A DNA stretch of 14,356 nt from a virus. Taxonomy: Duplodnaviria > Heunggongvirae > Uroviricota > Caudoviricetes. Under the pieces are notes generated by a model. The model saw only the letters and a list, made by a program, of their open reading frames with translations. It was not told the DNA's origin and did not search any database. A program made the position numbers and the translations under genes. The stretch lies in IMG/VR virus record IMGVR_UViG_2526164619_000014; one strand, 5' to 3'. Below, piece by piece: positions 757-14,356 of this stretch (position 1 is its first letter; each line of letters starts with the position of its first letter).

Positions 757-1049
757 AAATGTCTCCCTGTTTTTTTATGGCTTATGCAGTTTGCCATCCA
801 TGACGGAACGATACCGTATCCGCCTGTTTAGGTGTGGGCGATTGTAACAGCACGTCAACTGATGTCCAGACGCCCTGATTTGCTGATTTGATCATAGCCT
901 GGTAATCGCCGCCCTGTAGGCTACTTGATTCTATAGAAACAGAAAAAGGCAAACGCGGCCTTTTCTACATTTTCAGAGTAACTCCCGCCAGTTGCGAGCA
1001 AAAAAGCCGCTACGCTTTAGCTATACGTGCTAATTCAAGAGAAGAGACC

Positions 1050-1982
1050 ATGGACAACGACAAAATTGATCAACACAGCGACGAAATTGAAGTTGAGAGC
1101 GAAGAAAAAGAGCGCGGCAAAAAAATAGAAATAGATGAAGATCGACTCCCCTCCCGGGCGATGGCAATTCATGAACATATCCGCCAGGATGGTGAAAAAG
1201 AGCTGGAACGCGACGCAATGGCACTACTGTGGTCAGCCATTGCGGCGGGTCTGTCGATGGGCGCTTCGTTACTGGCAAAAGGGATATTTCATGTCGAACT
1301 GGAAGGCGTGCCGGGCAGCTTCTTGTTGGAGAATCTCGGTTATACCTTTGGTTTTATTATCGTCATTATGGCCCACCAGCAATTATTTACCGAAAACACC
1401 GTGACTGCGGTACTACCCGTCATGCAAAAACCGACAATGAGCAACGTCGGCTTACTTATGCGATTATGGGGCGTCGTGCTGCTGGGTAATATTCTCGGGA
1501 CAGGTATTGCTGCATGGGCATTTGAATATATGCCTATCTTCAATGAAGAAACTCGCGATGCATTTGTCAAAATCGGCATGGATGTGATGAAGAACACCCC
1601 CAGCGAGATGTTTGCCAACGCGATCATTTCCGGCTGGCTGATCGCCACTATGGTTTGGATGTTTCCTGCAGCGGGTGCGGCAAAGATTGTGGTGATTATA
1701 TTGATGACCTGGCTTATTGCACTGGGTGACACCACCCACATCGTTGTCGGTTCTGTAGAAATCCTCTATCTGGTGTTTAACGGCACGCTGCACTGGAGCG
1801 ATTTCATTTGGCCCTTCGCACTACCTACTTTAGCGGGGAATATCTGCGGCGGCACCTTTATCTTCGCGTTAATGAGTCATGCACAGATCCGTAACGACAT
1901 GAGCAACAAGCGCAAAGCAGAAGCACGCCAAAAAGCAGAACGTGCGGAAAACATTAAGAAAAATGATAAAAACCCAGCATAA
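1050..1982 (+). CDS. yfdC: formate/nitrite-transporter-family inner-membrane protein YfdC
   Basis: 310-aa ORF with acidic N-terminal tail followed by several hydrophobic helices. Position between mlaA and the argW-type tRNA matches the recalled E. coli K-12 order mlaA-yfdC-argW. Confidence 0.8.
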   Translation: MDNDKIDQHSDEIEVESEEKERGKKIEIDEDRLPSRAMAIHEHIRQDGEKELERDAMALLWSAIAAGLSMGASLLAKGIFHVELEGVPGSFLLENLGYTFGFIIVIMAHQQLFTENTVTAVLPVMQKPTMSNVGLLMRLWGVVLLGNILGTGIAAWAFEYMPIFNEETRDAFVKIGMDVMKNTPSEMFANAIISGWLIATMVWMFPAAGAAKIVVIILMTWLIALGDTTHIVVGSVEILYLVFNGTLHWSDFIWPFALPTLAGNICGGTFIFALMSHAQIRNDMSNKRKAEARQKAERAENIKKNDKNPA

Positions 1983-2057
1983 ATGGCGAGGGTTTAAGCA
2001 ATCGAGCGGCAGTGTACTTACTCCGCAGTCCATTAGCGGGTATACTCATGCCGCATT

Positions 2058-2132
2058 GTCCTCTTAGTTAAATGGATATAACGAGCCCCTCCTAAGGGCT
2101 AATTGCAGGTTCGATTCCTGCAGGGGACACTT
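2058..2132 (+). tRNA. argW: tRNA-Arg (anticodon CCU), argW type; the genomic 3' end reads A-CTT rather than A-CCA
   Basis: Cloverleaf folded by hand: acceptor GTCCTCT (2058-2064) pairs with AGGGGAC (2122-2128); D arm GTTA/TAAC; anticodon stem AGCCC/GGGCT with loop CTCCTAA, anticodon CCT at 2091-2093; T arm GCAGG/CCTGC with loop TTCGATT; discriminator A at 2129. Bases 2130-2132 are CTT. Confidence 0.85.
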
Positions 2133-2304
2133 TAAAGACCTTTCTCTACATTTCACTTCATTACATAACCACTTAAAAAAACAGTAAGTTATCACCGAAT
2201 CGGCCTGATTTTCATTTCAGTTAATTTCATGACATTACAACCTCGTGATGGTATAAGTGATGGTATTCCCCAGTTCGATATGCAGATACCATCAATTTAC
2301 CAAA

Positions 2305-3590
2305 ATGAGTACAGATATGGCCATTAATGTGCTTTCCCCCAAACAGATAGAAAACGCCAAGCCGAAGACCAATGATTACAAACTTACCGATGGAGGGAGT
2401 TTGTATCTACTGGTACGAAAGACTGGTGGAAAATACTGGCGTATGAATTATCGTTTTGATGGAAAACAAGTGACATTGGCATTAGGGGTCTACCCAGATG
2501 TCTCACTTGCAACAGCGCGGAAACGGCGTGATGAAGCCAGGCAACTACTAGCCGATGGTCGTGATCCTCGCGAAGCAAAGAAACCCAAAAAGGAAGACCC
2601 AATTTCCCCCACGTTCGAGAGTGTTGCCAGAGAGTGGCATAGTGGAACGATGGGGCATCCTGAGTGGAAAGAGATCACCCGTAAAAAATTCTCCGAGAAA
2701 TGGAAAACCACCTCTTTCCTGCCATCGGTTCAAAGCCTATCGATACGCTCAAAACCCGTGACTTGATGCCGATGCTGGTTGAGATGACTGAGAAAGGAAT
2801 TGGTGCCACAACGAGCCGTGTAAAAACCACTATGACGAGCATCTTCCGTTATGCCGTGCAACGTGGAATTGTCGATTACAACCCTGCCCACGATCTAAAA
2901 GGTGCAATTACGGCCCCCAAAGTACGACATCGCCCCGCACTACCTCTCGAACGTTTACCTGAACTGTTAGCGAAAACGAGAAGTTACACGGGAAGACCAT
3001 TGACTCGCCTAGCAGTTCTCTTTTCCCTGCACACTTTTGTGCGATCCAGCGAACTACGACATGCCAGATGGGAGGAGATCGACATTGAAAATGGGCTATG
3101 GACGATACCAGGACAACGTGAAGAGATCGCAGGGGTTAAATTCTCAGATCGGGGTGCAAAGATGGGGGCTGCTCATTATGTCCCGCTATCTAGTCAGGCT
3201 ATCGGGGTACTGGAGGATATAAGGAAAATCAGTGGTGAATATCTGCTGGTTTTTCCCGGTGACAGCAACCCATATAAACCGATGAGCGAAAACACAGTTA
3301 ATAAAGCACTGCGAACGATGGGTTACGACACTCAAACTGATGTTTGCTTGCATGGGTTCAGGGCGATGGCCTGCTCTGCACTGACCGAATCAGGACTCTG
3401 GTCACGCGATGCAGTTGAACGGCAGATGAGTCACCAAGAAAGAAACGAAGTGCGGGCAGCATATGTGCATCTTGCGCAGCACATGCAGGAACGCCGCAGA
3501 ATGATGCAATGGTGGTCTAATTATCTGGAACTAAATAAGGACGAATTCCATGCTCCTTATGACTTATCAGGTATTAACATTATCAATTAA
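2305..3590 (+). pseudogene. int: P4-type tyrosine integrase, reading frame broken in an A6 run (2683-2688); N-terminal part 2305..2766, catalytic part 2700..3590
   Basis: N-terminal ORF carries the P4-integrase-type N-terminal domain (..YKLTDGGSLYLLVRKTGGKYWRMNYRFDGKQ..). Second ORF carries the tyrosine-recombinase catalytic domain (..HGFRAMACS.. and C-terminal ..AAYVH..). Adding one A to the run at 2683-2688 gives a continuous ..RKKILREMENHLFPAIG.. reading. Start is ATG 2305 or 2317; the 2257 extension of the ORF track is unlikely. Lies directly 3' of the tRNA, as expected for the integrase of a tRNA-inserted element. Confidence 0.85.
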
Positions 3591-3620
3591 ATACTCTTAT
3601 AATTTAAAACAGAGGTCATA

Positions 3621-4502
3621 ATGCAGCATTCAACAGAGAATGAAACTATATTCTTAGGAAATCTATGGATTGACAAAAAAATACCACCATTAGAATATTG
3701 TTCATTTGAACGCGCTTCAAGACTATTAGAATGCGAGATTGATGATTTATTACATCTATACGAAATAGGCGCTTTTAATATCGCATTCAAGGCGGATGGA
3801 CTTGCAGTTAGATTTAATGTTAATTTCCTCAATAAAAATCAGAAAATGGAAATTGACTTAATTCATCCCGTATTAACTAATCAATCACTAGAGATGGAAT
3901 TTTCAACAATATGGTATGACCTTAAAGATGATTCCTTTGAACATTTTGAAAATGGGCTTCAAATTATAGGATTTGCCTGTGGTATTTGGTACGCCGATGA
4001 TATGATAAGTGACATAAAAAATGGATTAGCTATAGATCCAGATTATGAATTCAGGCTTAAACCGGTAAAAATACGAGATAATGTTTTGATGGCAACGGCC
4101 TCATATGAAGGAAATAAGGTCATTGAGATTCCATTTGAAGATCTTCTTATCATGCGAAGAGATTTAGAGTTAATATGGAAATCAGTAAAAACTGGAATTC
4201 CTATGCCAAGTTTACTTACGAAAAGAATTTCATCTGAACCTAAAATCCCCAAGCGATTAAATAACACTGCTGAGCATCATGCAAAAAATAGGGAGGGGTT
4301 ATTAAATGCAGCCATATATATATTAGCAAAATACCCAAGCGAATGTCGTGGTGAAAGAAAAGAGATAAGTCCTGAAAAGTGGACTAACGCCATAATTAAA
4401 CATTTAGGAGAGCTACCTCCAATATTTATCACTAATGAACAAGAAATCTTAAGAAAATTACGATTAGCGGTTAATCATGCGGGATTAAAACAAAAGGGGT
4501 AG
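3621..4502 (+). CDS. hypothetical protein (293 aa), AT-rich, no recognisable domain; sits between int and alpA
   Basis: Uninterrupted ORF with a good Shine-Dalgarno (AGAGG shortly upstream of ATG 3621). Clearly lower G+C than the flanking int and alpA genes (judged by eye). No motif I can assign. Confidence 0.6.
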   Translation: MQHSTENETIFLGNLWIDKKIPPLEYCSFERASRLLECEIDDLLHLYEIGAFNIAFKADGLAVRFNVNFLNKNQKMEIDLIHPVLTNQSLEMEFSTIWYDLKDDSFEHFENGLQIIGFACGIWYADDMISDIKNGLAIDPDYEFRLKPVKIRDNVLMATASYEGNKVIEIPFEDLLIMRRDLELIWKSVKTGIPMPSLLTKRISSEPKIPKRLNNTAEHHAKNREGLLNAAIYILAKYPSECRGERKEISPEKWTNAIIKHLGELPPIFITNEQEILRKLRLAVNHAGLKQKG

Positions 4503-4604
4503 ACTGAAACAATCTACAGGTAGAGTTGATTACACTACCTTCACAGCATTTTGATATCCCCATAGTATCTGCCGTGTTCATTACATAATACGGCAGGTAA
4601 TTTC

Positions 4605-4820
4605 ATGACATTAAAAACTTATCCTATCACTGGACATGCCCGCCCACGAGCTACTGCTGACTTTTTGCAAATAAGTACGGTTACTCTCTGGCGCTGGGAA
4701 AAGAACAATCCTGAATTTCCCAAATCTATACGCATTTCAAAACGGGTATCTGTTTACGATGCACAAGAAATTAGGCAGTGGGTTAAAGCTCAATCAGCAG
4801 GATTGGAGGAAGTAGTGTAA
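4605..4820 (+). CDS. alpA: AlpA-family phage transcriptional regulator / excisionase-like HTH protein
   Basis: 71-aa ORF; the segment ..FLQISTVTLWRWEKNNPEFPKSIRISKRVSVYDAQEIRQWV.. matches the AlpA/Vis-type winged-HTH pattern as recalled. Shine-Dalgarno AGGT 6 nt upstream of the ATG. Confidence 0.8.
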   Translation: MTLKTYPITGHARPRATADFLQISTVTLWRWEKNNPEFPKSIRISKRVSVYDAQEIRQWVKAQSAGLEEVV

Positions 4821-4838
4821 TGACAATATTAACAAAGC

Positions 4839-4860
4839 TGGGGAGAAAAAAGCCTCCCCA
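4839..4860. terminator. bidirectional hairpin between the convergent alpA and RHH genes
   Basis: Stem TGGGGAG (4839-4845), loop AAAAAAGC, stem CTCCCCA (4854-4860). Lies between the alpA stop (4820) and the stop of the minus-strand ORF (4870). T-tracts on either side are only moderate. Confidence 0.4.
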
Positions 4861-4869
4861 ACGTATTAA

Positions 4870-5064
4870 TCAATTCTTTGGTTCTAAACCTCGGCTTTGT
4901 AACTCTTTGCGTAGAATGCGCTTGATCCAAGCCGCTAGCGATTCATCGCCATCCTGCTGTTGTGCTTGTTCCATCAGTTCACGCAGTTCAGGGTCAAGTC
5001 GGAACTGGAATGGCGGATTCCCACGTCTTTCATTTTTGTGTGTTGACACGTCAATTACACCCAT
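4870..5064 (-). CDS. ribbon-helix-helix (Arc/CopG-like) DNA-binding protein, putative repressor
   Basis: 64-aa ORF; ..PPFQFRLDPELRELMEQAQQQ..ESLAAWIKRILRKEL.. has the beta-strand / helix / helix layout of RHH regulators. Perfect palindromes lie immediately upstream of its start. No convincing Shine-Dalgarno, so confidence is moderate. Confidence 0.5.
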   Translation of the reverse strand: MGVIDVSTHKNERRGNPPFQFRLDPELRELMEQAQQQDGDESLAAWIKRILRKELQSRGLEPKN

Positions 5065-5098
5065 TGTAATGTATTTATGTGTAATGACACATTACACA
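5042..5098 (+). promoter_or_regulatory. rightward sigma70-like promoter (TTGACA-N16-TGTAAT) overlapped by operator-like inverted repeats
   Basis: TTGACA at 5043-5048 and TGTAAT at 5065-5070. Perfect 9-3-9 palindrome TGTGTAATG-ACA-CATTACACA at 5078-5098, with related half-sites ATTACAC (5054-5060) and TGTAATG (5065-5071). Lies between the divergent RHH and Icd-like genes. Confidence 0.4.
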
Positions 5099-5180
5099 CA
5101 GAAAAACAAAATAGCAACGCCCCGGAGTGTTTGCAGCAGCACCGAGGCGTCTGACCAGCACGTTATATGAGGTAACGAAG

Positions 5181-5357
5181 ATGGCTAAACAGAAGTGTAC
5201 CTGGTTATTTGCGGCGATCAACCGCAGTCAACGCAATGCCCGTCCTGTGATGTTAAGGATCACCGCAGATAACGAACGATCAGCGCGGCGCAGACTTGCC
5301 CCGGACTATGTACTGAGCTTTGCCGGGCGCATTCCCTGCGGAGGTGAACATGCGTAA
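5181..5357 (+). CDS. Icd-like (P4 host cell division inhibitor-like) small protein
   Basis: Start ATG 5181 with GAGG 8 nt upstream. The segment ..WLFAAINRSQRNARPVMLRITADNERSARRRLAPDYVLSFAGRIP.. matches the Icd-like pattern recalled from P4-like prophages. The 5127 start in the ORF track is a less likely upstream extension. Confidence 0.6.
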   Translation: MAKQKCTWLFAAINRSQRNARPVMLRITADNERSARRRLAPDYVLSFAGRIPCGGEHA

Positions 5358-5709
5358 TTATCCGCACCCCGGCGAACGCTGGCAGCATGAACGTGGCTGG
5401 ACGGTCACGATTATCCGATTAATAGAAGCCTCGCCCTCTGTGGCGCTGGTTAATCCTGAATTCAGCTGTGAAGTGCTGATACGTCATGACAGCGACAACA
5501 AGCTTTCTTCCTGCCCTCTGGCATGGTTTGAACAGCGGTATACGCGCCTGTTTGATGTACCGCTCTTGAAGCCTGCACCAGCTCCTGCTGGCGGTAGTGG
5601 TTCCGGCCCGCTGACACTGCATCCGTCTGTGCTATTTATCCGCTGGCGGGAGCGTAGCATACGGCGTTCTGCTGAGCCTGACGACGGTCACTATTCAAAG
5701 TTTCTCTGA
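5350..5709 (+). CDS. hypothetical protein (about 120 aa)
   Basis: Start ATG 5350 preceded by GGAGGTG; 8-bp overlap with the Icd-like gene suggests coupling. No recognisable motif. Confidence 0.5.
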   Translation: MRNYPHPGERWQHERGWTVTIIRLIEASPSVALVNPEFSCEVLIRHDSDNKLSSCPLAWFEQRYTRLFDVPLLKPAPAPAGGSGSGPLTLHPSVLFIRWRERSIRRSAEPDDGHYSKFL

Positions 5710-5850
5710 CAAAATACCGCTGAAAACGGAGTAATCCACGATGAATATTTCAAACGGGCACAACGGTGCTCAGGGCCACACTTTGCCTGAAAAACACAAT
5801 ACCGGTGCTGAGGTGTACTGGCAATAGCGGACACTACCATTTGTTCTTTT

Positions 5851-6713
5851 TTAAGCAGCCATCTGATGATATTTTTCCCTGAAGGCTGCCGGGGAGATAT
5901 TTCCCAGACGAGAGTGACGACGCTGACGATTGTAGAAAATCTCAATGTATTCCCGTATTACTGAGATGGCTTCATCCCGGTTATTAAAACGATAGTGGCT
6001 CAGGCTCTCATTTTTCAGCGTTCCCCAGAAGCTTTCCATCGGAGCGTTGTCGTAACAGTTACCTTTACGCGACATTGATGTTTTCAGACCAGACTGCTCC
6101 TGTATGACCCGGTAATCGTATGCGCAGTACTGTGAACCTCGATCAGAGTGGTGGATTAGCCCGGCAGGTGGGCGCTGGCTCCTGAGCGCCATAAACAGGG
6201 CTTTACCTGTCAGCTCTTTTGTCATGCGCTCTCCCATGGCGTAGCCGACAATTTCGCACGTATAAACATCTTTAATGCCAGCGAGGTACAACCATCCCTC
6301 CTGTGTGGCAACATACGTCAGGTCCGCCACCCAGACCTGATTTGGTGCTGTAGGAGCGAACGTCTGGTTCAGCAGATTTGGCGCAACTGGCAGATTGTGG
6401 TTCGGGTTCGTAGTCGCTCTGAACTTGCGTTTCTGCTTACAGCGTAGCCTTAGCTCCTTACGAAGACGTGCCAGTCGGTCACGACCAACGATGATGCCAT
6501 TCTCTGCCAGCTCCGTCTGGAGCCGCCGGGTTCCATATGTTTCGAGTGCGGATATGTGCCACCTTAATCTCCAGTTTTAGCCGCCCATCACTTTGTTTTC
6601 TGTCTGAGGGTTCATGCTGTACCCAGTTGTAATAACCGCTCCTGGATACACCAAATACCTGACACATCGCTTCAATGGGAAATTGTTGTCGCCATTGTTC
6701 GATTAACGCGTAT
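5851..6713 (-). pseudogene. IS3-family transposase OrfB (DDE catalytic domain); reached from orfA by the usual -1 frameshift but carrying an additional frame break near 6540-6545
   Basis: N-terminal part in the -1 frame (..AEKYALIEQWRQQFPIEAMCQVFGVSRSGYYNWV..IRTR). Catalytic part 5851..6330 (..HHSDRGSQY.., ..GNCYDNAPMESFWGTLKNE..) is in a different frame. Minus-strand read CGCACTCGAAACATATGG is consistent with one extra base or two missing bases. Confidence 0.7.
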
Positions 6714-7005
6714 TTTTCAGCGACTCCTGTGCAAAATACGCTGTTGCTTTTTTTAATATATCTCGCTCAAGGCGAGCTTCATTTAACGCCTTACGCAGTT
6801 GCAGAATTTCAGATTCCAGTTCAGCCACCGTGCGGGAACCAGGAGTACCGAGCCCTTTTCTGGCGGCGGTAACCCATTGTCCTAAAGTGCCTTCAGGAAG
6901 GGATAATCGGGAAGCGCCTTCACTGATCGAAAGTTGATTTTCAAGAACCGTTCTGACAGCTTCGGCTTTGAACTCTTTAGAGTAACGTTGGTTTTTTCTG
7001 CTCAT
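6703..7005 (-). CDS. IS3-family transposase OrfA (HTH / leucine-zipper part)
   Basis: 100-aa ORF MSRKNQRYSKEFKAEAVRTV.. ending ..KKATAYFAQESLKNTR, the typical IS3-family OrfA C-terminus. Overlaps the orfB frame in -1 at the A-rich motif GAAAAAT (about 6707-6713). Confidence 0.9.
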   Translation of the reverse strand: MSRKNQRYSKEFKAEAVRTVLENQLSISEGASRLSLPEGTLGQWVTAARKGLGTPGSRTVAELESEILQLRKALNEARLERDILKKATAYFAQESLKNTR

Positions 7006-7285
7006 TATTAGCTCCTTCTGATGCCATTCTATTTCAGGAAGGAGTGTCCGTTAAACTCAGGCTACCTCATGCTTTTGCCTATGGGTTGTCAGAGGACAGT
7101 TTCGGAAAGCTGACCCGCGCAAGAAATGCCTGCGACATGCTCCAGCTTCTCTTTTCTGAATACCCGTCTCAGGCCGGAGCACTGGACGCAGGCTGTGCGC
7201 CTGGTGTCGCCGCGCTGATGGAGTACCTGCTGGCAGATTTGACGGATATTGCACACAGCTGCGCACTGATTGAAGGAGGTGCCAG

Positions 7286-7669
7286 ATGAACCAGCCGCAG
7301 GTTTCCATTTTCCCGGTAGAAATGACCACCGCGCTTTACCGGCGGGCTATTGCTTCAGCATGGCGGCAGAAAATGCTGAACGAAACTGGCAGTGATCAGT
7401 ATGGTCCGCACAGCCTGACGGTGGAGCGTATTGAAATGGCCATTGCGCTGCATATCGAGTGCGTACTGATTAACGAGTACGGCGAAGTGCAGGGCGCCGC
7501 TGCCGCGCTGGCACTGCTGACTGACATGCTGGAGCCGTCACTGCTGACCGCGCCGCCGGTACTGACCGCGCGCGGCTGTGAAGTGATGGCGGAGATGTAC
7601 CGCACGCTTCCGGCGGCATTTGATGACTTCTGCAGTACCGGTGTGACGTTGTATGAGGGGGAAGTATGA
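7286..7669 (+). CDS. hypothetical protein (127 aa), second gene of the primase operon
   Basis: ATGA overlaps at both ends (7286-7289 and 7666-7669) couple it to the flanking genes. No recognisable motif. Confidence 0.6.
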   Translation: MNQPQVSIFPVEMTTALYRRAIASAWRQKMLNETGSDQYGPHSLTVERIEMAIALHIECVLINEYGEVQGAAAALALLTDMLEPSLLTAPPVLTARGCEVMAEMYRTLPAAFDDFCSTGVTLYEGEV

Positions 7670-10338
7670 CAATACAGACGGTTACGCAGGTTTCAGCCGC
7701 CGCACGGGGGAAATGGCCCGTTATTCTGCAGATGCTGCGTATTGATGTACCTGAAAACGGCAGGCACGGTCCCTGCCCGAAATGTGGGGGCAAGGATCGT
7801 TTTCGCCTTGATGACCTTGACGGGCGCGGGACGTGGATCTGCAGCCAGTGTGGCAATGGTGACGGTCTGGATCTGGTTAAGCTCGTAACCGGTTACAGCG
7901 TCAGAAAGGCTGCGCAGGAGGTGGCGCAGGTGCTTAATGTGCCGGATATGCAGGAACTGCCTGTTAAGCCTGCCAGACAAAAAGCCCCTAAACGCGACAT
8001 GGGTCTTACCGTGGCGGCGCTGATGAAAGAGAGCCACACGGGAGAAAGCGCCTATCTGACAGGAAAAGGGTTCGCCGGATACCCGGCCTCTCTGACCGGA
8101 AGCGTACAGCATATCAGCGGTAAGGATTTTCCTGCCGGTTCCCTGCTGTTACCACTCACGACCAACACCGGAGCCGTGACCGGTGCACAGCTTATCGCCC
8201 CGACGGGTGAAAAAAGCATACTGCCCGGCAGCACGATGAAAGGCGCGTTTGTGTCGCTCAGCCCGTTACCGTCTGAACCACCGATACAGGTGGTGATTAC
8301 CGAAGGTTACGCTACGGCGCTGACGGTAAGCCAGCTCACTGCCGGATGCGTAGTGGCTGCCATATCTGCGGGCAACCTGCCCAATGTGGCGCAGTCGCTG
8401 CGGGCACGCTGGCCTGAGGTAAAAATTATCATCGCCGGTGATAACGATTTTCAGGACGGGGGTGAGAATCCCGGCAGAGCCTTTGCTGAACGGGCGGCAA
8501 AAGCTGTTGGCGGCTGGATGACGCTGCCACCAGGAGAGATTAAGGCTGACTGGAATGACTTTCATCGGGAGCACGGTATTACCCGTGCCCGTGAAGCCTT
8601 TCGCAACGGTCTGGTACTCTGCGGGGAAAGCCGCACGCAACTGCCGCACGGGTTCCGTCTTACCCAGGAATATCTCTGGTATGAAAAGCAGGTACAGCGC
8701 AACGGTGAGACGGAGATCCAGAACGTCAAAATATGCAGCCCGCTGCGCGTGACGGCAATCACCTGCGATGCCGATGGCGGTAACTTCGGACGACTGCTGG
8801 AATGGGAAGATACGTGGGGTGAGTGTCGCCGCTGGGCGATGCCGATGGAAATGCTGAGCGGCAGTGGTGAGGAACTGCGCCGGGTACTGCTGGTTAACGG
8901 GCTGTCTTATATCAGCACCACCGGTGAGGCACGCGCACGCCTGATGGAATATATCTCACTGTGTAAACCGGAACGCCGCGTGACCTGCATCAGTCGTACT
9001 GGCTGGCATGGTCAGGTTTACGTCCTGCAGGATGAGGTCAGCGGTGAAGGTGCAGAGGGTGTCATTCTCCAGACCACTTCCGTGCAGGGGCGTGATTTCC
9101 GCGTGTCGGGCACAACAGAGGAATGGCGGGAGCATGTATCCCGCTACTGTACCGGCAACTCCCGCGTGGCATTTGCTGTCAGCCTGGCCTTTGCTGCACC
9201 ACTGTTACGGCTGGTTGGTATGGACGGCGGCGGCTACCACCTCAAAGGGGAATCGACAGACGGTAAGACCACCACCATGAAAGCAGCAACCTCCGTCTGC
9301 GGCGGGCCTGACTACTGGCAGACATGGCGGGCCACCGGCAACGCGCTGGAGGGATGCGCCAGCCGCCGCAACGATGCCGCCATGATGCTTGATGAGATCC
9401 GGGAAGTTGACGGACGCGAGGCAGGCAATATCGCCTACATGCTGGCAAACGGTCAGGGCAAGGGCCGTGCCGGTACGGACGGTGAGCTGCGTACCCGTAA
9501 GCAGTGGCGCCTGTTGTTCTTTTCAACTGGCGAATTGTCTCTGACCGAACATGCGGCAAAGGCCGGTGAGCGTACTTTTGCCGGGATGGAAGTCAGGATG
9601 ATCCAGATCCCCAGCGATTCCGGGAAGTTTGGCGTTTTTGAGGAGCTGCACGGCTTCGACAGCGGCAAGGCTCTGGCAGAGCATCTTGAATGGGCCACGT
9701 CCTGCTACTACGGTTCGCCGTTCCGGGAGTGGCTGAAAGCACTGACCGCTGATCTTAACGGACTAACGGCACAGGCAAAATCGCTGATGAAGGAATATGC
9801 TGCCGCCCTGACTCCGAAAGATGCAGGCAATCAGGTGGGCCGGGCTGTGAACCGCTTTGCACTGGTGGCGATGGCAGGTGAACTGGCAACCCGTCTGGGT
9901 ATCACCGGCTGGCCTGAGGGTGAAGCACTGCGGGCAACCCGCGTCTGCCTGAACGCATGGCTGAAAGATCGCGGGCACACCGCCAATCAGGAAGATATCG
10001 CCGCACTGGAGCAGGTTCGCAGTTTCTTTACCGCGAATCAGTACAGCCGCTTTGCAGACTGGTATGACGAGCGCAACCGCCCCGGCAATATGGTGGGCTG
10101 GCGAAGGGTGGAGAAAGGCAGTACCGCGCAGGGCACGGAAGCTGTCACTACGTTCTATGTCATGCCGTCCGGCTGGAAAGAAATCTGCAGGGGATTTGAC
10201 CCGCGCAAGGTGGCGCGTCTGTGCGCAGATCGTGGATACCTGCTGCCCTCCACTGATGGCAAACTCCAGACAACCATTCGCCCGCCAGAGATGAATCCCC
10301 GCAGGCTCTATGTCTTCAACAGCGAGGTGCCGGGTTAA
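7666..10338 (+). CDS. P4 alpha-like primase/helicase (zinc-binding N-terminus, TOPRIM primase, D5-type P-loop NTPase)
   Basis: 890-aa ORF. N-terminal CPKCGGKDRFRLDD..WICSQCG zinc-ribbon typical of P4-family primases. Walker A GESTDGKT at about residue 525. GAGGGGG Shine-Dalgarno before ATG 7666. Confidence 0.9.
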   Translation: MTIQTVTQVSAAARGKWPVILQMLRIDVPENGRHGPCPKCGGKDRFRLDDLDGRGTWICSQCGNGDGLDLVKLVTGYSVRKAAQEVAQVLNVPDMQELPVKPARQKAPKRDMGLTVAALMKESHTGESAYLTGKGFAGYPASLTGSVQHISGKDFPAGSLLLPLTTNTGAVTGAQLIAPTGEKSILPGSTMKGAFVSLSPLPSEPPIQVVITEGYATALTVSQLTAGCVVAAISAGNLPNVAQSLRARWPEVKIIIAGDNDFQDGGENPGRAFAERAAKAVGGWMTLPPGEIKADWNDFHREHGITRAREAFRNGLVLCGESRTQLPHGFRLTQEYLWYEKQVQRNGETEIQNVKICSPLRVTAITCDADGGNFGRLLEWEDTWGECRRWAMPMEMLSGSGEELRRVLLVNGLSYISTTGEARARLMEYISLCKPERRVTCISRTGWHGQVYVLQDEVSGEGAEGVILQTTSVQGRDFRVSGTTEEWREHVSRYCTGNSRVAFAVSLAFAAPLLRLVGMDGGGYHLKGESTDGKTTTMKAATSVCGGPDYWQTWRATGNALEGCASRRNDAAMMLDEIREVDGREAGNIAYMLANGQGKGRAGTDGELRTRKQWRLLFFSTGELSLTEHAAKAGERTFAGMEVRMIQIPSDSGKFGVFEELHGFDSGKALAEHLEWATSCYYGSPFREWLKALTADLNGLTAQAKSLMKEYAAALTPKDAGNQVGRAVNRFALVAMAGELATRLGITGWPEGEALRATRVCLNAWLKDRGHTANQEDIAALEQVRSFFTANQYSRFADWYDERNRPGNMVGWRRVEKGSTAQGTEAVTTFYVMPSGWKEICRGFDPRKVARLCADRGYLLPSTDGKLQTTIRPPEMNPRRLYVFNSEVPG

Positions 10339-10370
10339 GGCTTTGCGTGAGTCTTATTTATTAAGGGTAA

Positions 10371-10560
10371 CAGGTGAAACAGGTGGAACAACCGTATTTT
10401 ACAGGGCTGAACCTGTTCCACCTTCTGAAATAGTGAGGTGGAACAGATGTAACGCCAGCCAATCCGCTGTTCCACCTTGTTACCCGCGATGTTCCACCGG
10501 TGCAGTGTATATAAATGCCTTATAAAACAAAGCTGTAACACATGTTTCACCTGTTCCACC
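10371..10560. repeat. iteron array (putative replication origin / crr-like region): six copies of TGTTCCACC in both orientations plus two GTTTCACC variants and an AT-rich box
   Basis: TGTTCCACC at 10414-10422, 10468-10476, 10490-10498, 10552-10560; GGTGGAACA at 10382-10390 and 10437-10445; variants at 10373-10380 (complement orientation) and 10544-10551. AT-rich stretch 10505-10540. Lies directly 3' of the primase gene. Confidence 0.6.
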
Positions 10561-10648
10561 GCATCAGGGACATAAAGCAGACTGAAACAGAGGGCATTTT
10601 TATCTGGCTGGCTTTCATAGCCACGTCTGAATAACCGCAAGCGCCCGT

Positions 10649-10704
10649 TGTGCCAGCCACCACACACTGAGCACCGATAGTGTGCTTGTGTCAGCCACGA
10701 CACA
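10649..10704 (+). promoter_or_regulatory. candidate late promoter region for the sid-like operon with two TGT-N12-ACA dyads (Ogr/Delta-type activator sites)
   Basis: TGT 10649-10651 / ACA 10664-10666 and TGT 10687-10689 / ACA 10702-10704, 35-90 bp upstream of ATG 10739. The dyad is short enough to occur by chance, so this is tentative. Confidence 0.35.
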
Positions 10705-10738
10705 ATTGACGTAACGAACCAACCCGACAGGAGAAGTC

Positions 10739-11482
10739 ATGAACAATACCGCAGTAAATAACAACCTTTCCACTTTTCCGGCTGTAACGCAGCGGGCACT
10801 GGAAACCATGAACACAGCCAGAAACGCATGGCTTGAAGCACGTCGTCAGCAGAAAGCGGCAGCGGATAATATTGCGACAATCCGCCAGCGTCGCGCTGAA
10901 ATGGAAGCCACGACGAACACACTGAATGAGGAGTGGCGCACGCTGTTTCGTGAAAGTCAGGGCGTGGTCTCAAAGGAAATGAAAAAACTGCGCACGGAAA
11001 TTGCGCTGGGACGAGAAACGCTTGAGGATTTTGATGAGCTGCTGGCGGCTCAGGAAAGCGAAAATGCACTTTTGCCGCAGAAAGCTGCAGAATTAGCCGG
11101 AAAGTATATCCACGCGCATAACATTCTTGTGGATATTCGCGCAAAACAAATCTGGGAGGATTTTATGCAGTCGCATGGAAAAGCGCTTATTCAGACGCTG
11201 AGCCTGCTTAAATCCACAATGGGCCGGGAAGCCAGTGCCGTTGTGGGTGTGGTGAATTCAGTTAATGACCCGGACACAGTGCTGAAAGACTTTATTCATA
11301 AACATATCACCAGACCGGCTCTGGCTAACGATGCGATGCCTGAGCAGGACCCGGTGTTTAAACTGGCGGGAGTTGCCCCGGATTATGCGGCGCGTCTGGA
11401 TTTCAGTAATCAACTCTCTCCGGCAGCTATGCATAAAATTAAGGTTCGTCAGGAACTCGCTGAGAAGGAGAAAGCAGTATGA
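10739..11482 (+). CDS. sid: Sid-like protein (P4 capsid size-determination / external scaffold homologue)
   Basis: 247-aa alpha-helical, charged protein; size and position (first gene of the late operon, followed by Psu-like and Ogr/Delta genes) fit P4 Sid. N-terminus resembles the Psu-like protein downstream. Assignment by context and recalled similarity only. Confidence 0.5.
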   Translation: MNNTAVNNNLSTFPAVTQRALETMNTARNAWLEARRQQKAAADNIATIRQRRAEMEATTNTLNEEWRTLFRESQGVVSKEMKKLRTEIALGRETLEDFDELLAAQESENALLPQKAAELAGKYIHAHNILVDIRAKQIWEDFMQSHGKALIQTLSLLKSTMGREASAVVGVVNSVNDPDTVLKDFIHKHITRPALANDAMPEQDPVFKLAGVAPDYAARLDFSNQLSPAAMHKIKVRQELAEKEKAV

Positions 11483-12030
11483 CGGCCCGAGGCACGCCTG
11501 ACCAGGCACTTACCAGTTTTCGGAATGCCCGTATTCTGTGGGCCGGACATAGTGAGAGCCGAAAAGCCGTTGAACAACAGATAACATCTCTCCTCGCTGC
11601 CACAGAAAAACCAGCAGATTATGCCCGACAGCTCGAATTACTGCGGGAACGTCTGGATGTGCTGAAATGGCAAATTAACTGTGCTGCGCGCGAATGCATT
11701 TACGCGCAGCATTTACTGATGGAGGCCTGCACAGAAGCCGCTCTCAGCAATTTTATGCAGGCGAATGGGGCAGCCCTGACATCTGCACTGGCTCCGTTCC
11801 TGAAGGGGCGCGGAGGGGTTGACGTTGCGTCCCGTATATTACGCAGTGCTCTGGTTCGCCAGCTGGCAATAACACCGCCTGAAATTGCCGGGGATTATCG
11901 TGAGATCCTGGATGAATCCGGTTTGATACCTGACCCCGGGATGATTCGTGATTGCCAGGACTCTTACACCCCGGCACAACATCTGCATTTTCAGCAACGC
12001 CTGAATGACATTAACGATATACAGGAGTGA
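11479..12030 (+). CDS. psu: Psu-like protein (P4 polarity suppression protein homologue)
   Basis: 183-aa ORF, ATGA-coupled to the preceding gene. Contains ..KWQINCAA.., ..FMQANGAALTSALAP.., ..YTPAQHL.. which match motifs I recall from P4 Psu (not verified by search). Confidence 0.6.
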   Translation: MTARGTPDQALTSFRNARILWAGHSESRKAVEQQITSLLAATEKPADYARQLELLRERLDVLKWQINCAARECIYAQHLLMEACTEAALSNFMQANGAALTSALAPFLKGRGGVDVASRILRSALVRQLAITPPEIAGDYREILDESGLIPDPGMIRDCQDSYTPAQHLHFQQRLNDINDIQE

Positions 12031-12308
12031 TTTTAAGGGCACTTAAATGTCCGGAATGCGGTACAGTTGCACACGCCAGAACAGCAGCCTATGAAGCTCC
12101 GTCAGTTAAACGCTCGTGGTATCAGTGCCAGAATCTGGAATGTTCCTGCACATTTACGGCACTGGAGAGTGTGGATAAGATAATCATGAAACCCCGGCGC
12201 AATGAACAGGAACCAGACAAATCACACCCCCCGGTAAAACAACAGCAAACGCTCAATCGCTATGGCTCCGCGTCAAAACTGTCAAGCCGTCAGCAGATTC
12301 CTGTCTGA
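12027..12308 (+). CDS. Ogr/Delta-family zinc-finger late-gene transcriptional activator
   Basis: ..CPECGTVAHART..YQCQNLECSCTFTALESV..IMKP.. is the Ogr/Delta signature (C-x2-C ... C-x4-C). Apparent GTG start overlapping the psu-like stop (GTGA). Confidence 0.85.
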   Translation: MILRALKCPECGTVAHARTAAYEAPSVKRSWYQCQNLECSCTFTALESVDKIIMKPRRNEQEPDKSHPPVKQQQTLNRYGSASKLSSRQQIPV

Positions 12309-12328
12309 TTAGAAAAAACGCCCACGTA

Positions 12329-12353
12329 ATCCCGGTCGAGTACCGGGATTTTT
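12329..12353 (+). terminator. intrinsic terminator of the late operon
   Basis: Perfect 8-bp stem ATCCCGGT / ACCGGGAT with 5-nt loop, followed by TTTT; 20 bp after the Ogr/Delta stop codon. Confidence 0.7.
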
Positions 12354-12380
12354 AACACCTTTTCCCTGGCTGGCCTGAGA

Positions 12381-12495
12381 GCGCATGAGTGCATGTCTAT
12401 AGCGCATGAAAACGCATGAACCTTATGCACCATTTTTGACGAGAAAGCCCTTGTGTGGTGGCTTCTGAGACGATTTATGAGGTGCATGAAAACCA
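12381..12495. repeat. cluster of GCATGA(A) direct repeats in the intergenic region after the late operon
   Basis: GCGCATGA 12381-12388, GTGCATG 12389-12395, GCGCATGAAAAC 12402-12413, GCATGAA 12414-12420, GTGCATGAAAACC 12483-12495. Function unknown. Confidence 0.4.
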
Positions 12496-12791
12496 GTCTG
12501 TTAAGCGAAGCGGGCAGGCGTGCGGGGCTGTTCGCATCAACATAAAAATAACGGGCTGATATAGTTATAAAATCAAATGAACTCTTTTAGTACGACATGG
12601 GTATGTGCGCCAGTAGCAACGTCAGCCCCCAAGCTTTCTATTGTTCTTTTCTGTTGTACCATCAATACGTACCGATTAGCTCCTAAGCATCAATATCAGT
12701 TTGAACGTATTGCTTTGAACTAATTTTTAGATGATTTTTTTCATTAAAAATTATAATGTTGTAGATAAAAAGAGAATCTTATAGAGGCGTT

Positions 12792-13480
12792 ATGTCAAAT
12801 AAAGTTGATGTTTTTTGAGCCGAGTTAGCCATGTATCACAGTTTGTATTGGTGGCATTTGCTATTTTTGGATATTTTTATACAGTAAGACCAATTTACCA
12901 AAAGGAACTTTTATCAGAAGAAATTGCAAAAAAAGAAGTTGAATTAAATAAATTAAAAACTGCAATGGAAAACTCCCAAAAATTTATAGAGAATAATAAA
13001 ATCTTACGAAAAGAATTGGAGGGAAGCATTGCCAAACTTGATTTACAATACAAAGAATCAGAAGAAAAATTAAATTCAATAAATTCTGAACTAAGAAAAA
13101 CTTTAAATGAACTAAATAAACAAAAGACCATTGCCAAAAGAGCGGTCAATGCAAACAACAAGAATCTTGAATCTGTTTTCTGGGAGAATTTTTCGGGGCT
13201 AGTTGGAGTAGTTTATATTTCTAAGAGCACAGATTTTGTGAACAATACACTGGGTGACGCCAAAACAGCCTATAATACTCCTAGTAATTTATATATATCT
13301 CCTTATGATGCAATTAATGAAGCATTAAAAAATGGCAATCATAACTTTATCTCAAGTTCAGAAAATGTCCCTGAAAATATCCGCAACAAAATTCTAGCAA
13401 AGATCCGTCGCGCTATTGAAAAAAATAAGATTTCATTAACAAAAAACCTATCGGTTTTGATGAAAAAATTAATAGCCTGA
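12792..13480 (+). CDS. cargo protein A: membrane-anchored coiled-coil protein of unknown function (about 229 aa if read from ATG 12792 through a one-base frame break in the T6 run 12811-12816; the ORF track gives TTG 12815..13480)
   Basis: AGAGG Shine-Dalgarno then ATG 12792 encodes MSNKVDVF and stops at TGA 12816-12818; the long ORF continues in the -1 frame from 12815. The joined N-terminus MSNKVDVFLSRVSH.. aligns with the in-frame N-terminus of the downstream paralogue. One hydrophobic helix (FVLVAFAIFGYFYTV), then a K/E-rich coiled-coil-like region. Strongly AT-rich. Confidence 0.6.
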
Positions 13481-13921
13481 TAAAAACTATAGAGTCAACT
13501 AAGTTACGCAAAAATGAAAACGAAATAATGAAAAATAACACTGCAGAAAGAGAACTATCATCTTATATTTTCCTGATAAATGGTCAATCAAGAATCCGCG
13601 CCATGGATTTCTTAAAAGACATTCAACATTTAGACTAATATTGGATATCTTATAATGAATACTAATACTAAATTTGATTTATGGTTGATTAGAGTAAGTT
13701 ACATTGCCCAAGTTGGATTGTTTTTTTGACAACCTTTACAATATTTTACACAGTAATTCCGATATACCAAAATGCAAATCTGCAGGAATCAATAGCAAAA
13801 AAGAAATCGAATATAAACAATTACAAGACAAAGAAAAACTCTATATTTAAAGTTAAGAAAGGAATATTCAAGAAAATATGTTGTTGATGCAATCTCCCAA
13901 TGTTCTCCAACAGAAATACTT

Positions 13922-14356
13922 ATGCGTCAACCATCTGAAGATGACAGTAAAAAATCACATGATGTAAGAATGAAGGAATTAAAAACATTTTTAAACAAAG
14001 ATATAACCAGTTGCTTTGAAAAAACTTTTTATAGCAACCCTTACATTAAGGAATTAAGAGACACTGATCAACAAAATATTCTTCTTAAAATTAAAAATTT
14101 ATCCCCCACTATAACTAAACTACATGAAAAATATAAAGCAGAATTTGATGACGATAGCAAGTTATTGAATACTGGAAAAGAAAAATCGACAAGATTAAAA
14201 GAGGTGGAAGATTATTTAATAGGAATAGGAGGTTACACAGAAAACAGCAAAAAGGATTTTGAAAACTCATACATAGAATCTGGAGCATATGACTTGGTTG
14301 TAAGGTATGGTTTTGAAGTCAACGATCTATTTTCCAAAACCATCAGAGACAATTAA
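13922..14356 (+). CDS. cargo protein B, C-terminal 144 aa as an intact ORF; the full paralogous gene probably starts at ATG 13655 and is interrupted by three one-base frame breaks (T run 13721-13727, A run 13797-13802, A run 13834-13838)
   Basis: Reading 13655..14356 with one base added at each of the three runs gives MNTNTKFDLWLIRVSYIAQVGLFFLTTFTIFYTVIPIYQNANLQESIAKKEIEYKQLQDKEKTLYLKLRKEY.. which aligns with cargo protein A over about 70 residues. The C-terminal half is unrelated to protein A. Stop codon is the last three bases of the window. Confidence 0.5.
   Translation: MRQPSEDDSKKSHDVRMKELKTFLNKDITSCFEKTFYSNPYIKELRDTDQQNILLKIKNLSPTITKLHEKYKAEFDDDSKLLNTGKEKSTRLKEVEDYLIGIGGYTENSKKDFENSYIESGAYDLVVRYGFEVNDLFSKTIRDN

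What the first reader, a model, noticed from the sequence alone, without database searches (positions are those of the whole stretch)
2131..14356. P4-like satellite occupying the argW tRNA site, possibly grounded by an IS insertion while keeping its cargo
Seen: gene order int, alpA, Icd-like, alpha primase, iterons, Sid-like, Psu-like, Ogr/Delta. Established: this is the P4 satellite gene repertoire; in E. coli K-12 the argW site instead hosts the CPS-53 (KpLE1) prophage, as I recall. Seen: the primase operon is cut off from its upstream sequence by an IS3-family insertion and the integrase frame is broken. Inference: the element may no longer replicate or excise efficiently, which would fix the cargo genes in the chromosome.
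Basis: partly seen in the sequence, partly recalled or inferred. Interest (0 to 1): 0.5.

Follow-up and report, generated by a model that had tools for sequence, protein, structure and literature searches.

The report
IS600-hit P4-like satellite at argW
This is a common P4-type phage satellite sitting in the argW tRNA gene of Shigella flexneri K-315. It carries a real IS600 insertion and a lost start codon in its activator gene, but the "broken" integrase and cargo genes are almost certainly sequencing errors, so the finding is largely ordinary.

Summary
The gene order is confirmed: argW, int, alpA, Icd-like, Toprim/DUF927 primase, eight iterons, Sid-like, Psu, Ogr/Delta, then AT-rich cargo.

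The window is 100% identical to Shigella flexneri K-315 draft contig AKMY01000056.1.

**Real lesions**
- The IS is IS600 (5809-7069, minus strand, 3-bp duplication TGC). It lies inside a 94-codon gene of the early operon, upstream of DUF5375 and the primase. Independent sister assemblies share it.
- The delta start codon is ATG->AGG (12036-12038). I saw this only in IS600-bearing contigs.

**Probable artefacts**
- The integrase break is a one-base A7->A6 contraction.
- Sister contigs that span the same IS600 junctions match the window everywhere they overlap, except for eight one-base A/T homopolymer contractions. These are the integrase site, six cargo sites and one in IS600. There the integrase (424 aa) and cargo genes (282 and 234 aa) are intact.

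**Other points**
- attR lies about 610 bp past the window end. The element is about 11.6 kb, or about 12.9 kb with IS600.
- intS (CPS-53 type) follows attR, so the two elements sit in tandem rather than one replacing the other.
- By published criteria this is a divergent Type C P4-like element: no epsilon, no Pox_D5 helicase domain.
- The cargo matches nothing known.

Impaired replication and late activation are plausible but untested. Excision functions look intact.

The parts
2058..2130 (+). tRNA-Arg(CCT) argW. The last 21 bases (2110-2130, TTCGATTCCTGCAGGGGACAC) are the attL core.
   Evidence: ARAGORN and Rfam tRNA at 63.4 bits. Comparing an empty site (L025) with an occupied site (L001) gives a 21-bp overlap, which is the duplicated core.
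2245..2295 (+). Candidate arm-type integrase-binding repeats GTGATGGTAT: two direct copies (2245-2254, 2257-2266) and one inverted copy (about 2285-2294). Two further copies lie next to attR, outside the window.
   Evidence: k-mer analysis of the reconstructed attP. The layout resembles the annotated P4 attP arm repeats. Binding was not tested.
2317..3590 (+). Tyrosine integrase, 52% identical to P4 Int. In the window it is split into two ORFs by a one-base A7->A6 contraction at 2683, which is probably a sequencing error.
   Evidence: Pfam Arm-DNA-bind_3, Phage_int_M and Phage_integrase. BLASTP to P4 Int. A7 and an intact 424-aa gene in sister contigs L030 and L033. The repaired protein is on at least 1000 contigs.
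3621..4502 (+). Orphan 293-aa accessory gene in a low-G+C stretch (about 32-34% against about 50% in the neighbouring stretches) between int and alpA. Function unknown.
   Evidence: No Pfam, PADLOC or PHROGs match. Only 14 homologue clusters. The AF2 model has pLDDT 67 and no significant PDB match. Composition.
4605..4820 (+). AlpA-family helix-turn-helix protein, a putative excisionase/regulator.
   Evidence: PF05930, E 1.6e-7.
4870..5064 (-). 64-aa Arc-like repressor candidate, divergent from the early operon.
   Evidence: phrog_228, E 9e-6. Annotated in L001.
5181..5808 (+). Promoter-proximal part of the early operon: Icd-like 58 aa (5181-5357), a 119-aa ORF (5350-5709), and the first 22 codons of the 94-aa ORF (5741-5808).
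   Evidence: RefSeq annotation of the IS-free relative L001. Icd58 is 54% identical to the P4 'cI' ORF. PHROGs hits. A promoter-like site lies at 5084-5112.
5809..7069 (-). IS600 (IS3 family), flanked by a 3-bp target duplication TGC (5806-5808 and 7070-7072). This copy is 1261 bp against 1264 bp, through a T7->T6 contraction and a 2-bp CG deletion in orfB.
   Evidence: 99.5% identity to annotated IS600. HTH_Tnp_1 and rve domains. Junctions fixed against L001. The same junctions occur in independent contigs L003, L030 and L033.
7070..7289 (+). Remainder of the 94-aa ORF (phrog_14861, unknown function) that IS600 cut.
   Evidence: Alignment with L001 17742-18026.
7286..7669 (+). DUF5375 protein, homologue of P4 orf106.
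   Evidence: PF17345. 40% identity to P4 orf106.
7666..10338 (+). Replication protein of 890 aa: Zn-ribbon primase, Toprim and DUF927.
   Evidence: Pfam. Residues 5-322 are 38% identical to P4 alpha; the C-terminal half is not.
10373..10560 (.). Candidate origin: eight TGTTYCACC iterons in both orientations.
   Evidence: 8 found against 0.28 expected, with 0 of 200 shuffles reaching 8. Repeat layout. Iteron-type ('ori type 1') 8-bp repeats are annotated in P4 ori and crr; their sequence was not read out or compared here.
10739..11482 (+). Sid-like protein of 247 aa (capsid-size determination).
   Evidence: 24% identity to P4 Sid, E 1e-11. phrog_6165, E 9e-93. Weak Psu-family match.
11479..12030 (+). 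Psu homologue of 183 aa.
   Evidence: PF07455, E 3e-44. 29% identity to P4 Psu.
12036..12308 (+). Ogr/Delta zinc-finger activator (single unit, 90 aa). Its ATG start is changed to AGG in this lineage.
   Evidence: PF04606. Sequence comparison. AGG occurs only in the IS600-bearing contigs L003, L004, L005 and L018; ATG occurs in 10 IS-free relatives.
12507..12535 (+). Candidate cos region (AAGCGGGCAGGCGTGCGGGGCTG...), at the border between the conserved core and the variable cargo.
   Evidence: Weak match to the P4 cos junction, 12 of 13 bases, not significant alone. Similarity to relatives with other cargo stops at 12530/12535. P4 hotspots adjoin cos (PMC9122126).
12792..13638 (+). Cargo gene 1. 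It is 282 aa in sister assemblies. In the window the frame is broken by one-base contractions at 12811 and 13441.
   Evidence: No Pfam, PADLOC or PHROGs hit. The AF2 model is a TM helix, a long single helix and a helical bundle, pLDDT 86, with no PDB match.
13655..14356 (+). Cargo gene 2. It is 234 aa in sister assemblies and shares the N-terminal FYTVxPIYQ membrane motif with gene 1. In the window it is broken at 13721, 13797 and 13834.
   Evidence: BLASTP between the two gives 49% identity over 53 residues, E 1e-12. No family hits.

Best explanation
**What it is.** An ~11.6-kb phage satellite of the P4 type. Its own tyrosine integrase placed it in the 3' end of argW. It belongs to a divergent but common sub-lineage: a Toprim/DUF927 replicase instead of the P4 alpha helicase half, a single-unit Ogr/Delta, the order sid-psu-delta, and no epsilon.

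**Expected behaviour of intact relatives (inferred from P4 biology).**
- Int plus AlpA excise the element.
- The replicase fires at the iteron origin just downstream of its gene.
- Delta and the helper's Ogr switch on sid-psu-delta and the helper late genes.
- Sid shrinks the helper capsid.
- The helper terminase packages the circle from the cos region. Next to cos lies a swappable cargo slot.

**What happened in S. flexneri K-315 and its close relatives.**
- IS600 inserted, antisense, into a 94-codon gene of the early operon. DUF5375 and the replicase now lie 1.26 kb away from their promoter.
- The delta start codon became AGG.
- Replication and late-gene activation are therefore probably crippled. 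The element is probably a decaying satellite that is inherited vertically.

**What is not damaged.** The integrase frameshift and the six cargo frameshifts are homopolymer under-calls of the draft assembly. Int, AlpA, both att cores and the arm repeats are intact, so excision itself is probably still possible. The cargo genes are intact.
For: **Identity and ends**
-.
- The element measures 11.6 kb between 21-bp cores. The P4 record is 11,624 bp.

**IS600 is real and shared**
-.
- The genes from icd58 to the primase overlap or are closely spaced. The only promoter-like site on the + strand lies upstream of icd58. None was found between the IS and the primase.

**Delta start loss**
- It is confined to IS600-bearing contigs.

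**Artefact argument**
- L030 covers window 1-5883 and L003 covers 6627-14356. Over these stretches the only differences are eight -1 contractions of A/T runs that are 6 to 8 bases long in the sister contigs. There are no substitutions.
- The window is the K-315 draft contig.
- The repaired Int is a widespread exact allele.

**Recent mobility of the family**
- The core is in 323 of 5426 complete E. coli genomes.
- Primases at 90% identity or more occur in Salmonella, Citrobacter and Klebsiella.
- The same core carries different cargo after position 12530.
Against: - No expression, excision or transduction data exist for this element or its sub-lineage.
- The promoter scan is a crude consensus match. 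An internal or IS-borne promoter could still drive the replicase.
- GTG at 12027 or ATT at 12030 could give low-level delta translation. One gene caller did pick the ATT.
- The frameshifts could be genuine private mutations of the K-315 isolate rather than errors. I could not inspect its reads or its sequencing platform.
- The cos assignment rests on a weak match.
- The helper is unknown.
Confidence: 0.7

Rival explanations
1. One reading: both lesions are real, so the element can neither excise (integrase dead) nor replicate (operon cut), and it is permanently fixed in the chromosome.
For: The window sequence does contain the frameshift. Shigella genomes are rich in true pseudogenes. IS600 and the delta start loss show that decay is under way.
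Against: Sister contigs with the identical IS600 junction have A7 and a 424-aa integrase. All eight differences from sister assemblies are -1 homopolymer contractions, with no substitutions. L017 and L019, the other two contigs on which this exact 296-aa product was called, do not confirm the frameshift: L017 has A7 and is split in some other way, possibly by the G->A change at 2666 (not checked), and L019 is a contig end.
Confidence: 0.08
2. The element is still a working satellite. IS600 is tolerated because the replicase is expressed from an internal or IS-derived promoter, delta is translated from an alternative start or replaced by the helper's Ogr, and the ~12.9-kb genome still fits the small capsid.
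For: Int, AlpA, the att cores, arm repeats, ori, sid, psu and the candidate cos are all intact. In-frame GTG and ATT codons lie just upstream of the lost ATG.
Against: No promoter-like site was found on the + strand between 5810 and 7700. Two independent lesions in satellite functions co-occur in one lineage, as expected under relaxed selection. Delta is the most conserved core component of P4-like elements (PMC8628076).
Confidence: 0.2
3. It is not a P4-type satellite in the functional sense. It would be another kind of integrative island (PICI-like, or a cryptic remnant) that merely carries sid/psu/delta homologues.
For: It fails two of the seven published P4 core markers: epsilon PF10554 and alpha PF03288. 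The gene order relative to int differs from P4. The authors of the catalogue say such Type C sets may be different elements that diverged long ago.
Against: Five of seven markers are present. DUF5375-primase synteny is as in P4. Iterons are present. The size is P4-like at 11.6 kb. A variable cargo slot begins at a cos-like sequence. The core is widespread and near-identical across genera.
Confidence: 0.07

Closest known systems
Satellite phage P4 (NC_001609)
   Same: Tyrosine integrase (52% identity) targeting a tRNA 3' end. DUF5375 (orf106) lies directly upstream of the primase gene. The N-terminal primase domain is 38% identical. Iterons are present. Sid, Psu and Delta homologues are present. 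Total size is about 11.6 kb. The accessory slot lies beside the cos region.
   Different: The helicase half is DUF927, not Pox_D5. There is no epsilon/Ash, cnr or recognisable CI RNA (Rfam negative). Delta is a single Ogr unit of 90 aa against a 166-aa tandem. The order is sid-psu-delta. The iterons lie after the primase gene. The att site lies between int and the cargo slot, so int and cargo are at opposite ends of the prophage. There is no DNA-level similarity.
P4-like 'Type C' sets lacking epsilon and alpha (Moura de Sousa & Rocha 2021, PMC8628076)
   Same: The marker combination int, alpA, sid, psu and delta without PF10554 and PF03288 matches their most abundant Type C variant. Their early-branching Psu/Sid clade is from E. 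coli and Salmonella. The psu/delta swap is reported in 20% of elements.
   Different: I did not run their custom Sid profile or their clustering, so assignment to their cluster VII is an inference.
P4-hotspot defence cargo (Rousset et al. 2022, PMC9122126; Moura de Sousa et al. 2026, PMC13586616)
   Same: A variable, low-G+C gene cassette starts right after the cos-like sequence, downstream of the psu/delta operon. Relatives with an identical core carry other cargo there.
   Different: The cargo here matches no known defence family. The slot is separated from int by att, so a 'psu ... int' search would see it only in tandem arrays.
CPS-53 / KpLE1 prophage at argW of E. coli K-12
   Same: Same attachment tRNA. 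An intS-type integrase follows directly after the satellite's attR in the S. flexneri lineage.
   Different: It is a different element. It lies outside the window, and it is present in tandem, not as an alternative.
IS600 (IS3 family)
   Same: 99.5% identity, TG...CA ends, 3-bp duplication, orfA/orfB layout.
   Different: This copy reads 3 bases short: T7->T6 and a CG deletion that breaks orfB. The first is an error according to sister contig L030. The second could not be checked.

Membership tests
P4-like satellite (seven core components of PMC8628076) | Integrase (PF00589) | tested here: met
   PF00589, E 1e-18, plus arm-binding and central domains. 52% identity to P4 Int.
P4-like satellite (seven core components of PMC8628076) | Psu (PF07455) | tested here: met
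   E 3e-44, profile positions 2-180 of 182.
P4-like satellite (seven core components of PMC8628076) | Delta (PF04606) | tested here: met
   E 7e-16, full profile. The start codon is AGG in this lineage.
P4-like satellite (seven core components of PMC8628076) | Sid (authors' custom profile) | tested here: inconclusive
   The custom profile was not available. BLASTP to P4 Sid gives 24% identity over 226 aa, E 1e-11. phrog_6165 gives E 9e-93.
P4-like satellite (seven core components of PMC8628076) | AlpA (PF05930) | tested here: met
   E 1.6e-7, profile positions 6-51 of 51.
P4-like satellite (seven core components of PMC8628076) | Epsilon/Ash (PF10554) | tested here: not met
   No hit in any ORF scanned, at E up to 0.01 or 0.1 depending on the call. 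No BLASTP hit to P4 epsilon.
P4-like satellite (seven core components of PMC8628076) | Alpha (PF03288, Pox_D5 C-terminal helicase region) | tested here: not met
   The primase hits Zn_Ribbon_Prim, Toprim_3 and DUF927 only. Similarity to P4 alpha is limited to residues 5-322.
P4-like satellite | cos site shared with a P2-family helper | tested here: inconclusive
   No match to the 19-nt P2/P4 cohesive end at up to 3 mismatches. A weak cos-junction-like match lies at 12507-12535, at the core/cargo border.
P4-like satellite | Helper-dependent excision, replication and packaging into small capsids | not testable with these tools
   Needs experiments.
IS600 / IS3 family | High identity to IS600, TG...CA termini, 3-bp target duplication, orfA (HTH_Tnp_1) and orfB (rve) | tested here: met
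tRNA-site integrative element | Direct repeat of the tRNA 3' end at the far boundary, and an empty site in other strains | tested here: met
   attR is in L001, L003, L004 and most other relatives. The empty site is in L025-L029, with a 21-bp core overlap. attR itself lies outside the window.
PICI (Gram-negative phage-inducible chromosomal island) | An int-alpA-primase island without sid/psu/delta, using its own packaging-redirection genes | not tested
   Considered only. The presence of Sid, Psu and Delta homologues points to the P4 type. No PICI-specific profiles were run.

The most novel reading that the evidence does not exclude
The two paralogous, membrane-anchored coiled-coil proteins in the cos-adjacent slot (282 and 234 aa) could form a new anti-phage system carried by this satellite lineage. 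They share an invariant N-terminal FYTVxPIYQ transmembrane motif and have no match in Pfam, PADLOC, PHROGs or the PDB. The orphan 293-aa gene next to int might be part of it. Their survival intact in a satellite whose own functions are decaying would fit host-level selection for the cargo.
Probability: 0.35. Interest if true: 0.45.

Novelty: new member of a known kind. Interest (0 to 1): 0.2.

Why it matters
**For the scan.** The most eye-catching part of the finding, a broken integrase, is an assembly artefact. The same window holds seven more homopolymer miscalls. Pseudogene calls from this draft should not be trusted without reads.

**For biology.** The case is a routine example of IS-driven decay of a mobile element in Shigella. 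Two real hits fall on satellite functions (replication operon, late activator). The excision genes and the cargo stay whole.

**What is left to follow.** The open lead is the unannotated cargo pair in a slot where six of eight randomly chosen unknown loci proved to be phage defences (PMC13586616).

Tried and rejected
- **Rfam.** A scan of the whole window at E up to 0.1 found only the tRNA. There was no P4 CI-like or other RNA family.
- **DNA similarity to phages.** A distant-mode search of the core against the phage collection found no match. P4 is related only at the protein level.
- **cos search.** An exact or 3-mismatch search for the P2/P4 19-nt cohesive end found nothing. Only a weak junction-like match was found.
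- **Cargo families.** PADLOC, Pfam and PHROGs gave nothing for the three cargo proteins.
- **Cargo structures.** A PDB sequence profile search for the 293-aa family gave nothing. AF2 models with Foldseek against the PDB gave no match at E up to 0.001 for either protein. The hits of the 293-aa model to MerR-type and excisionase folds at E 0.2-0.9 are not evidence.
- **Junction search.** The IS600/target junction was searched in the species-representative genome collection: 0 hits.
- **Literature.** A search for the RefSeq protein accessions returned 0 papers. A search for a P4 capsid size limit returned nothing usable. Whether 12.9 kb still fits is therefore left open.
- **Apparent confirmations of the frameshift.** I first took L017 and L019, which encode the identical 296-aa C-terminal integrase ORF, as possible independent confirmation. 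I rejected this. L017 has A7 and is split in some other way, and L019 is a contig end.
- **Sequencing platform.** I could not find the platform used for K-315.

Full report
**Anatomy**

The window starts in chromosomal genes: mlaA (1-756, minus strand) and yfdC (1050-1982). tRNA-Arg(CCT), which is argW, follows at 2058-2130. G+C then fluctuates between about 28% and 62%, unlike the flanks.

Downstream of the tRNA lie, in order:
- an integrase split over two ORFs (2257-2766 and 2700-3590);
- an orphan 293-aa gene in a low-G+C stretch (3621-4502);
- AlpA (4605-4820);
- a divergent 64-aa Arc-like ORF;
- an Icd-like 58-aa ORF and a 119-aa ORF;
- an IS3-family element on the minus strand;
- DUF5375 (7286-7669);
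- an 890-aa Zn-ribbon/Toprim/DUF927 primase (7666-10338);
- eight TGTTYCACC iterons at 10373-10560 (0.28 expected, with 0 of 200 shuffles reaching 8);
- a Sid-like gene (10739-11482);
- Psu (11479-12030);
- Ogr/Delta (to 12308);
- an AT-rich stretch to the end of the window.

**Source and relatives**

The window is 100% identical to contig AKMY01000056.1 of the draft genome of Shigella flexneri K-315, GCA_000268165.1. This is a Bangladeshi isolate (PMC6397287).

An IS-free copy of the same element, 99.5-99.8% identical, sits at argW in E. coli Z1323HEC0108 (L001). There RefSeq annotates:
- a 424-aa integrase;
- an uninterrupted run of small genes ending in DUF5375 and the primase;
- two cargo genes of 282 and 234 aa.

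The core (7070-12530) occurs in 323 of 5426 complete E. coli genomes. Primases at 90% identity or more are recorded from Salmonella, Citrobacter and Klebsiella. Many relatives lose similarity at exactly 12530/12535 and carry other genes beyond that point. One example is a SEC-C-domain protein in L017.

**The IS**

Alignment with L001 places the insertion at 5809-7069, with a TGC duplication on both sides. The insert is IS600, 99.5% identical to annotated copies.

It lies in antisense orientation inside a 94-codon gene (phrog_14861, function unknown). That gene belongs to a tightly packed gene run from the Icd-like ORF to the primase.

The insertion is real:
- contigs from other S. flexneri samples that carry the same primase allele start at or inside IS600 at the same junction (L003-L006);
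- contigs carrying the same yfdC allele run from yfdC to the left junction (L030, L033).

A consensus scan finds a promoter-like site upstream of the Icd-like ORF. It finds none on the + strand between the IS and the primase. This is weak evidence, but it fits a polar cut.

**The broken integrase is an artefact**

Relative to L001, the window has seven indels in the element. All are one-base deletions in A or T runs: A7->A6 at 2683 in the integrase, and six in the cargo.

The decisive comparison is with sister assemblies of the same IS600-bearing lineage:
- L030 covers window 1-5883. It differs only by A7 at 2683 and T7 at 5847.
- L003 covers 6627-14356. It differs only at the six cargo sites.
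- No substitution occurs anywhere in these 13.6 kb.

In those assemblies the integrase is 424 aa and the cargo genes are 282 and 234 aa. The integrase obtained by restoring the A is exactly a protein seen on at least 1000 contigs.

Two other contigs encode the same 296-aa C-terminal ORF but do not confirm the frameshift. L017 has A7 and is split in some other way, perhaps by the G->A change at 2666 (its effect was not checked). L019 is a contig end.

Eight contractions with no substitutions and no expansions is the signature of homopolymer under-calling, not of mutation. I rate the chance that the frameshift is real in the isolate at under 10%. I could not see the reads.

At 12036-12038 the delta start codon is AGG instead of ATG. 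A Shine-Dalgarno-like AGGAG lies upstream of it.

The change is a substitution, so it is not a homopolymer issue. It is present in all four IS600-bearing contigs and in none of ten IS-free relatives.

Only a GTG that overlaps that AGGAG, or an ATT, remain in frame. Delta is reported as the most conserved component of P4-like elements (PMC8628076).

**Ends of the element**

The window stops at the last codon of the second cargo gene.
- In L001, L003 and L004 a copy of the tRNA 3' end (TTCGATTCCTGCAGGG...) lies about 610 bp further on.
- Strains with an empty site go straight from argW to the csc sucrose genes (L025-L029).
- Empty and occupied sites overlap by 21 bp, which is the core.
- The element is thus 11.6 kb, against 11,624 bp for P4. 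It is about 12.9 kb with IS600.

GTGATGGTAT repeats flank the reconstructed attP on both arms, three of them in the window.

In the S. flexneri lineage attR is followed by intS, the CPS-53/KpLE1 integrase that follows argW directly in K-12 (PMC3032704). The satellite and the CPS-53-type element are therefore in tandem. The argW-dsdCXA region is a known variable island.

**Relation to P4**

Protein comparisons give:

| Element gene | P4 counterpart | Identity |
|---|---|---|
| Int | Int | 52% |
| DUF5375 | orf106 | 40% |
| Primase, residues 5-322 | alpha | 38% |
| Sid-like | Sid | 24% |
| Psu | Psu | 29% |
| Delta | Delta | 45% |
| Icd-like | 'cI' ORF | 54% |

There is no match to epsilon, cnr or the alpha helicase half.

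The published definition uses seven markers (PMC8628076). Five are present. Epsilon (PF10554) and alpha (PF03288) are not. This is the authors' Type C, whose commonest variant lacks exactly these two. They suggest such sets may be an old, diverged branch.

Several features support a P4-type way of life:
- DUF5375-primase synteny;
- iterons;
- the P4-like size;
- a variable slot starting at a cos-like sequence (12507-12535), as described for P4 hotspots (PMC9122126).

The cos match itself is weak. The canonical 19-mer is absent.

**Cargo**

The 293-aa protein and the 282/234-aa pair have no hit in Pfam, PADLOC or PHROGs.

The pair:
- The two proteins share a conserved N-terminal membrane segment (49% identity over 53 residues).
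- The invariant residues of the 282-aa family cluster in that segment.
- The AF2 model (pLDDT 86) is a transmembrane helix that runs into a helix of about 150 residues, then a helical bundle. It has no PDB match.
- The family is small and mostly enterobacterial.
- A 52% homologue in Pantoea sits beside an Ogr/Delta gene in an ssrA island. A 30% homologue lies among nif genes.

The 293-aa family has 14 clusters. Its model has pLDDT 67 and no PDB match.

In a 2026 study, six of eight randomly chosen unknown loci in P4 hotspots protected against phages (PMC13586616). A defence role is therefore a fair guess by location, and nothing more.

**Verdict**

This is a common, divergent P4-type satellite at argW. 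In one S. flexneri lineage it has two real lesions: IS600 in the replication operon and loss of the delta start codon. These probably cripple replication and late activation. The excision genes, the att sites and the cargo are intact once sequencing errors are discounted.

'Grounded' is plausible for propagation, unsupported for excision, and untested either way.

Another S. flexneri lineage shows contigs that all stop at integrase codon 397. This hints at a separate IS hit there and fits the general picture of IS erosion in Shigella.

Interest is low. The only lead worth following is the cargo pair.

Noticed in passing
window 12036-12038: The start codon of the Ogr/Delta activator is AGG instead of ATG. 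The change occurs only in the IS600-bearing S. flexneri contigs (L003, L004, L005, L018). All ten IS-free relatives have ATG.
   Followed up: yes
window 2683, 5847, 12746, 12811, 13441, 13721, 13797, 13834: Eight one-base contractions of A/T homopolymers relative to otherwise identical sister assemblies. This is the pattern of sequencing error in the K-315 draft. ORF calls in AT-rich parts of this assembly are unreliable.
   Followed up: yes
window about 6543 (IS600 orfB): A 2-bp CG deletion in a CGCG repeat relative to canonical IS600 breaks the transposase orfB. No sister contig covers this stretch, so I cannot say whether it is an error or a real lesion.
   Followed up: partly
L003 8346-8640 and L004 7933 onward (about 610 bp beyond the window end): attR of the satellite is followed directly by an intS-type integrase gene (CPS-53/KpLE1 type). 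argW therefore carries a tandem array in this lineage.
   Followed up: partly
L021-L024 (other S. flexneri assemblies), window-equivalent position 3508: All 24 short-read contigs that were read end at the same base inside the integrase gene (codon 397). This suggests an independent repeat or IS insertion in int in another S. flexneri lineage. Their A7 run is intact.
   Followed up: partly
L011 and L017, upstream of the satellite integrase: In some genomes a P22/lambda-like prophage (Erf or Rad52, Kil, CIII, Abc2 genes) lies directly upstream of the satellite's int, in place of the yfdC-argW flank seen in the window. In L017 the integrase is split into 116-aa and 296-aa ORFs although the A7 run is intact; the cause was not established.
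   Followed up: no
L018 3934-6319 (K-315 contig, upstream of the window): IS110-family and IS1 transposase genes sit between fadL and mlaA, where other strains have yfdF. This is further IS erosion around the locus.
   Followed up: no
window 12792-14356; L035 and L036: The two cargo proteins share an almost invariant N-terminal motif (FYTVxPIYQ) in a predicted membrane helix, while their C-terminal parts differ. A 52% homologue in Pantoea lies as a single gene next to Ogr/Delta in an ssrA island that also encodes an AAA_15/DUF3696 ATPase and an RNA ligase.
   Followed up: partly
L033 4270 (SRR066117 assembly), window 4283: This sister contig has its own A-run contraction in the 293-aa gene, giving a 227-aa call. 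Homopolymer errors therefore differ between assemblies of this lineage.
   Followed up: no
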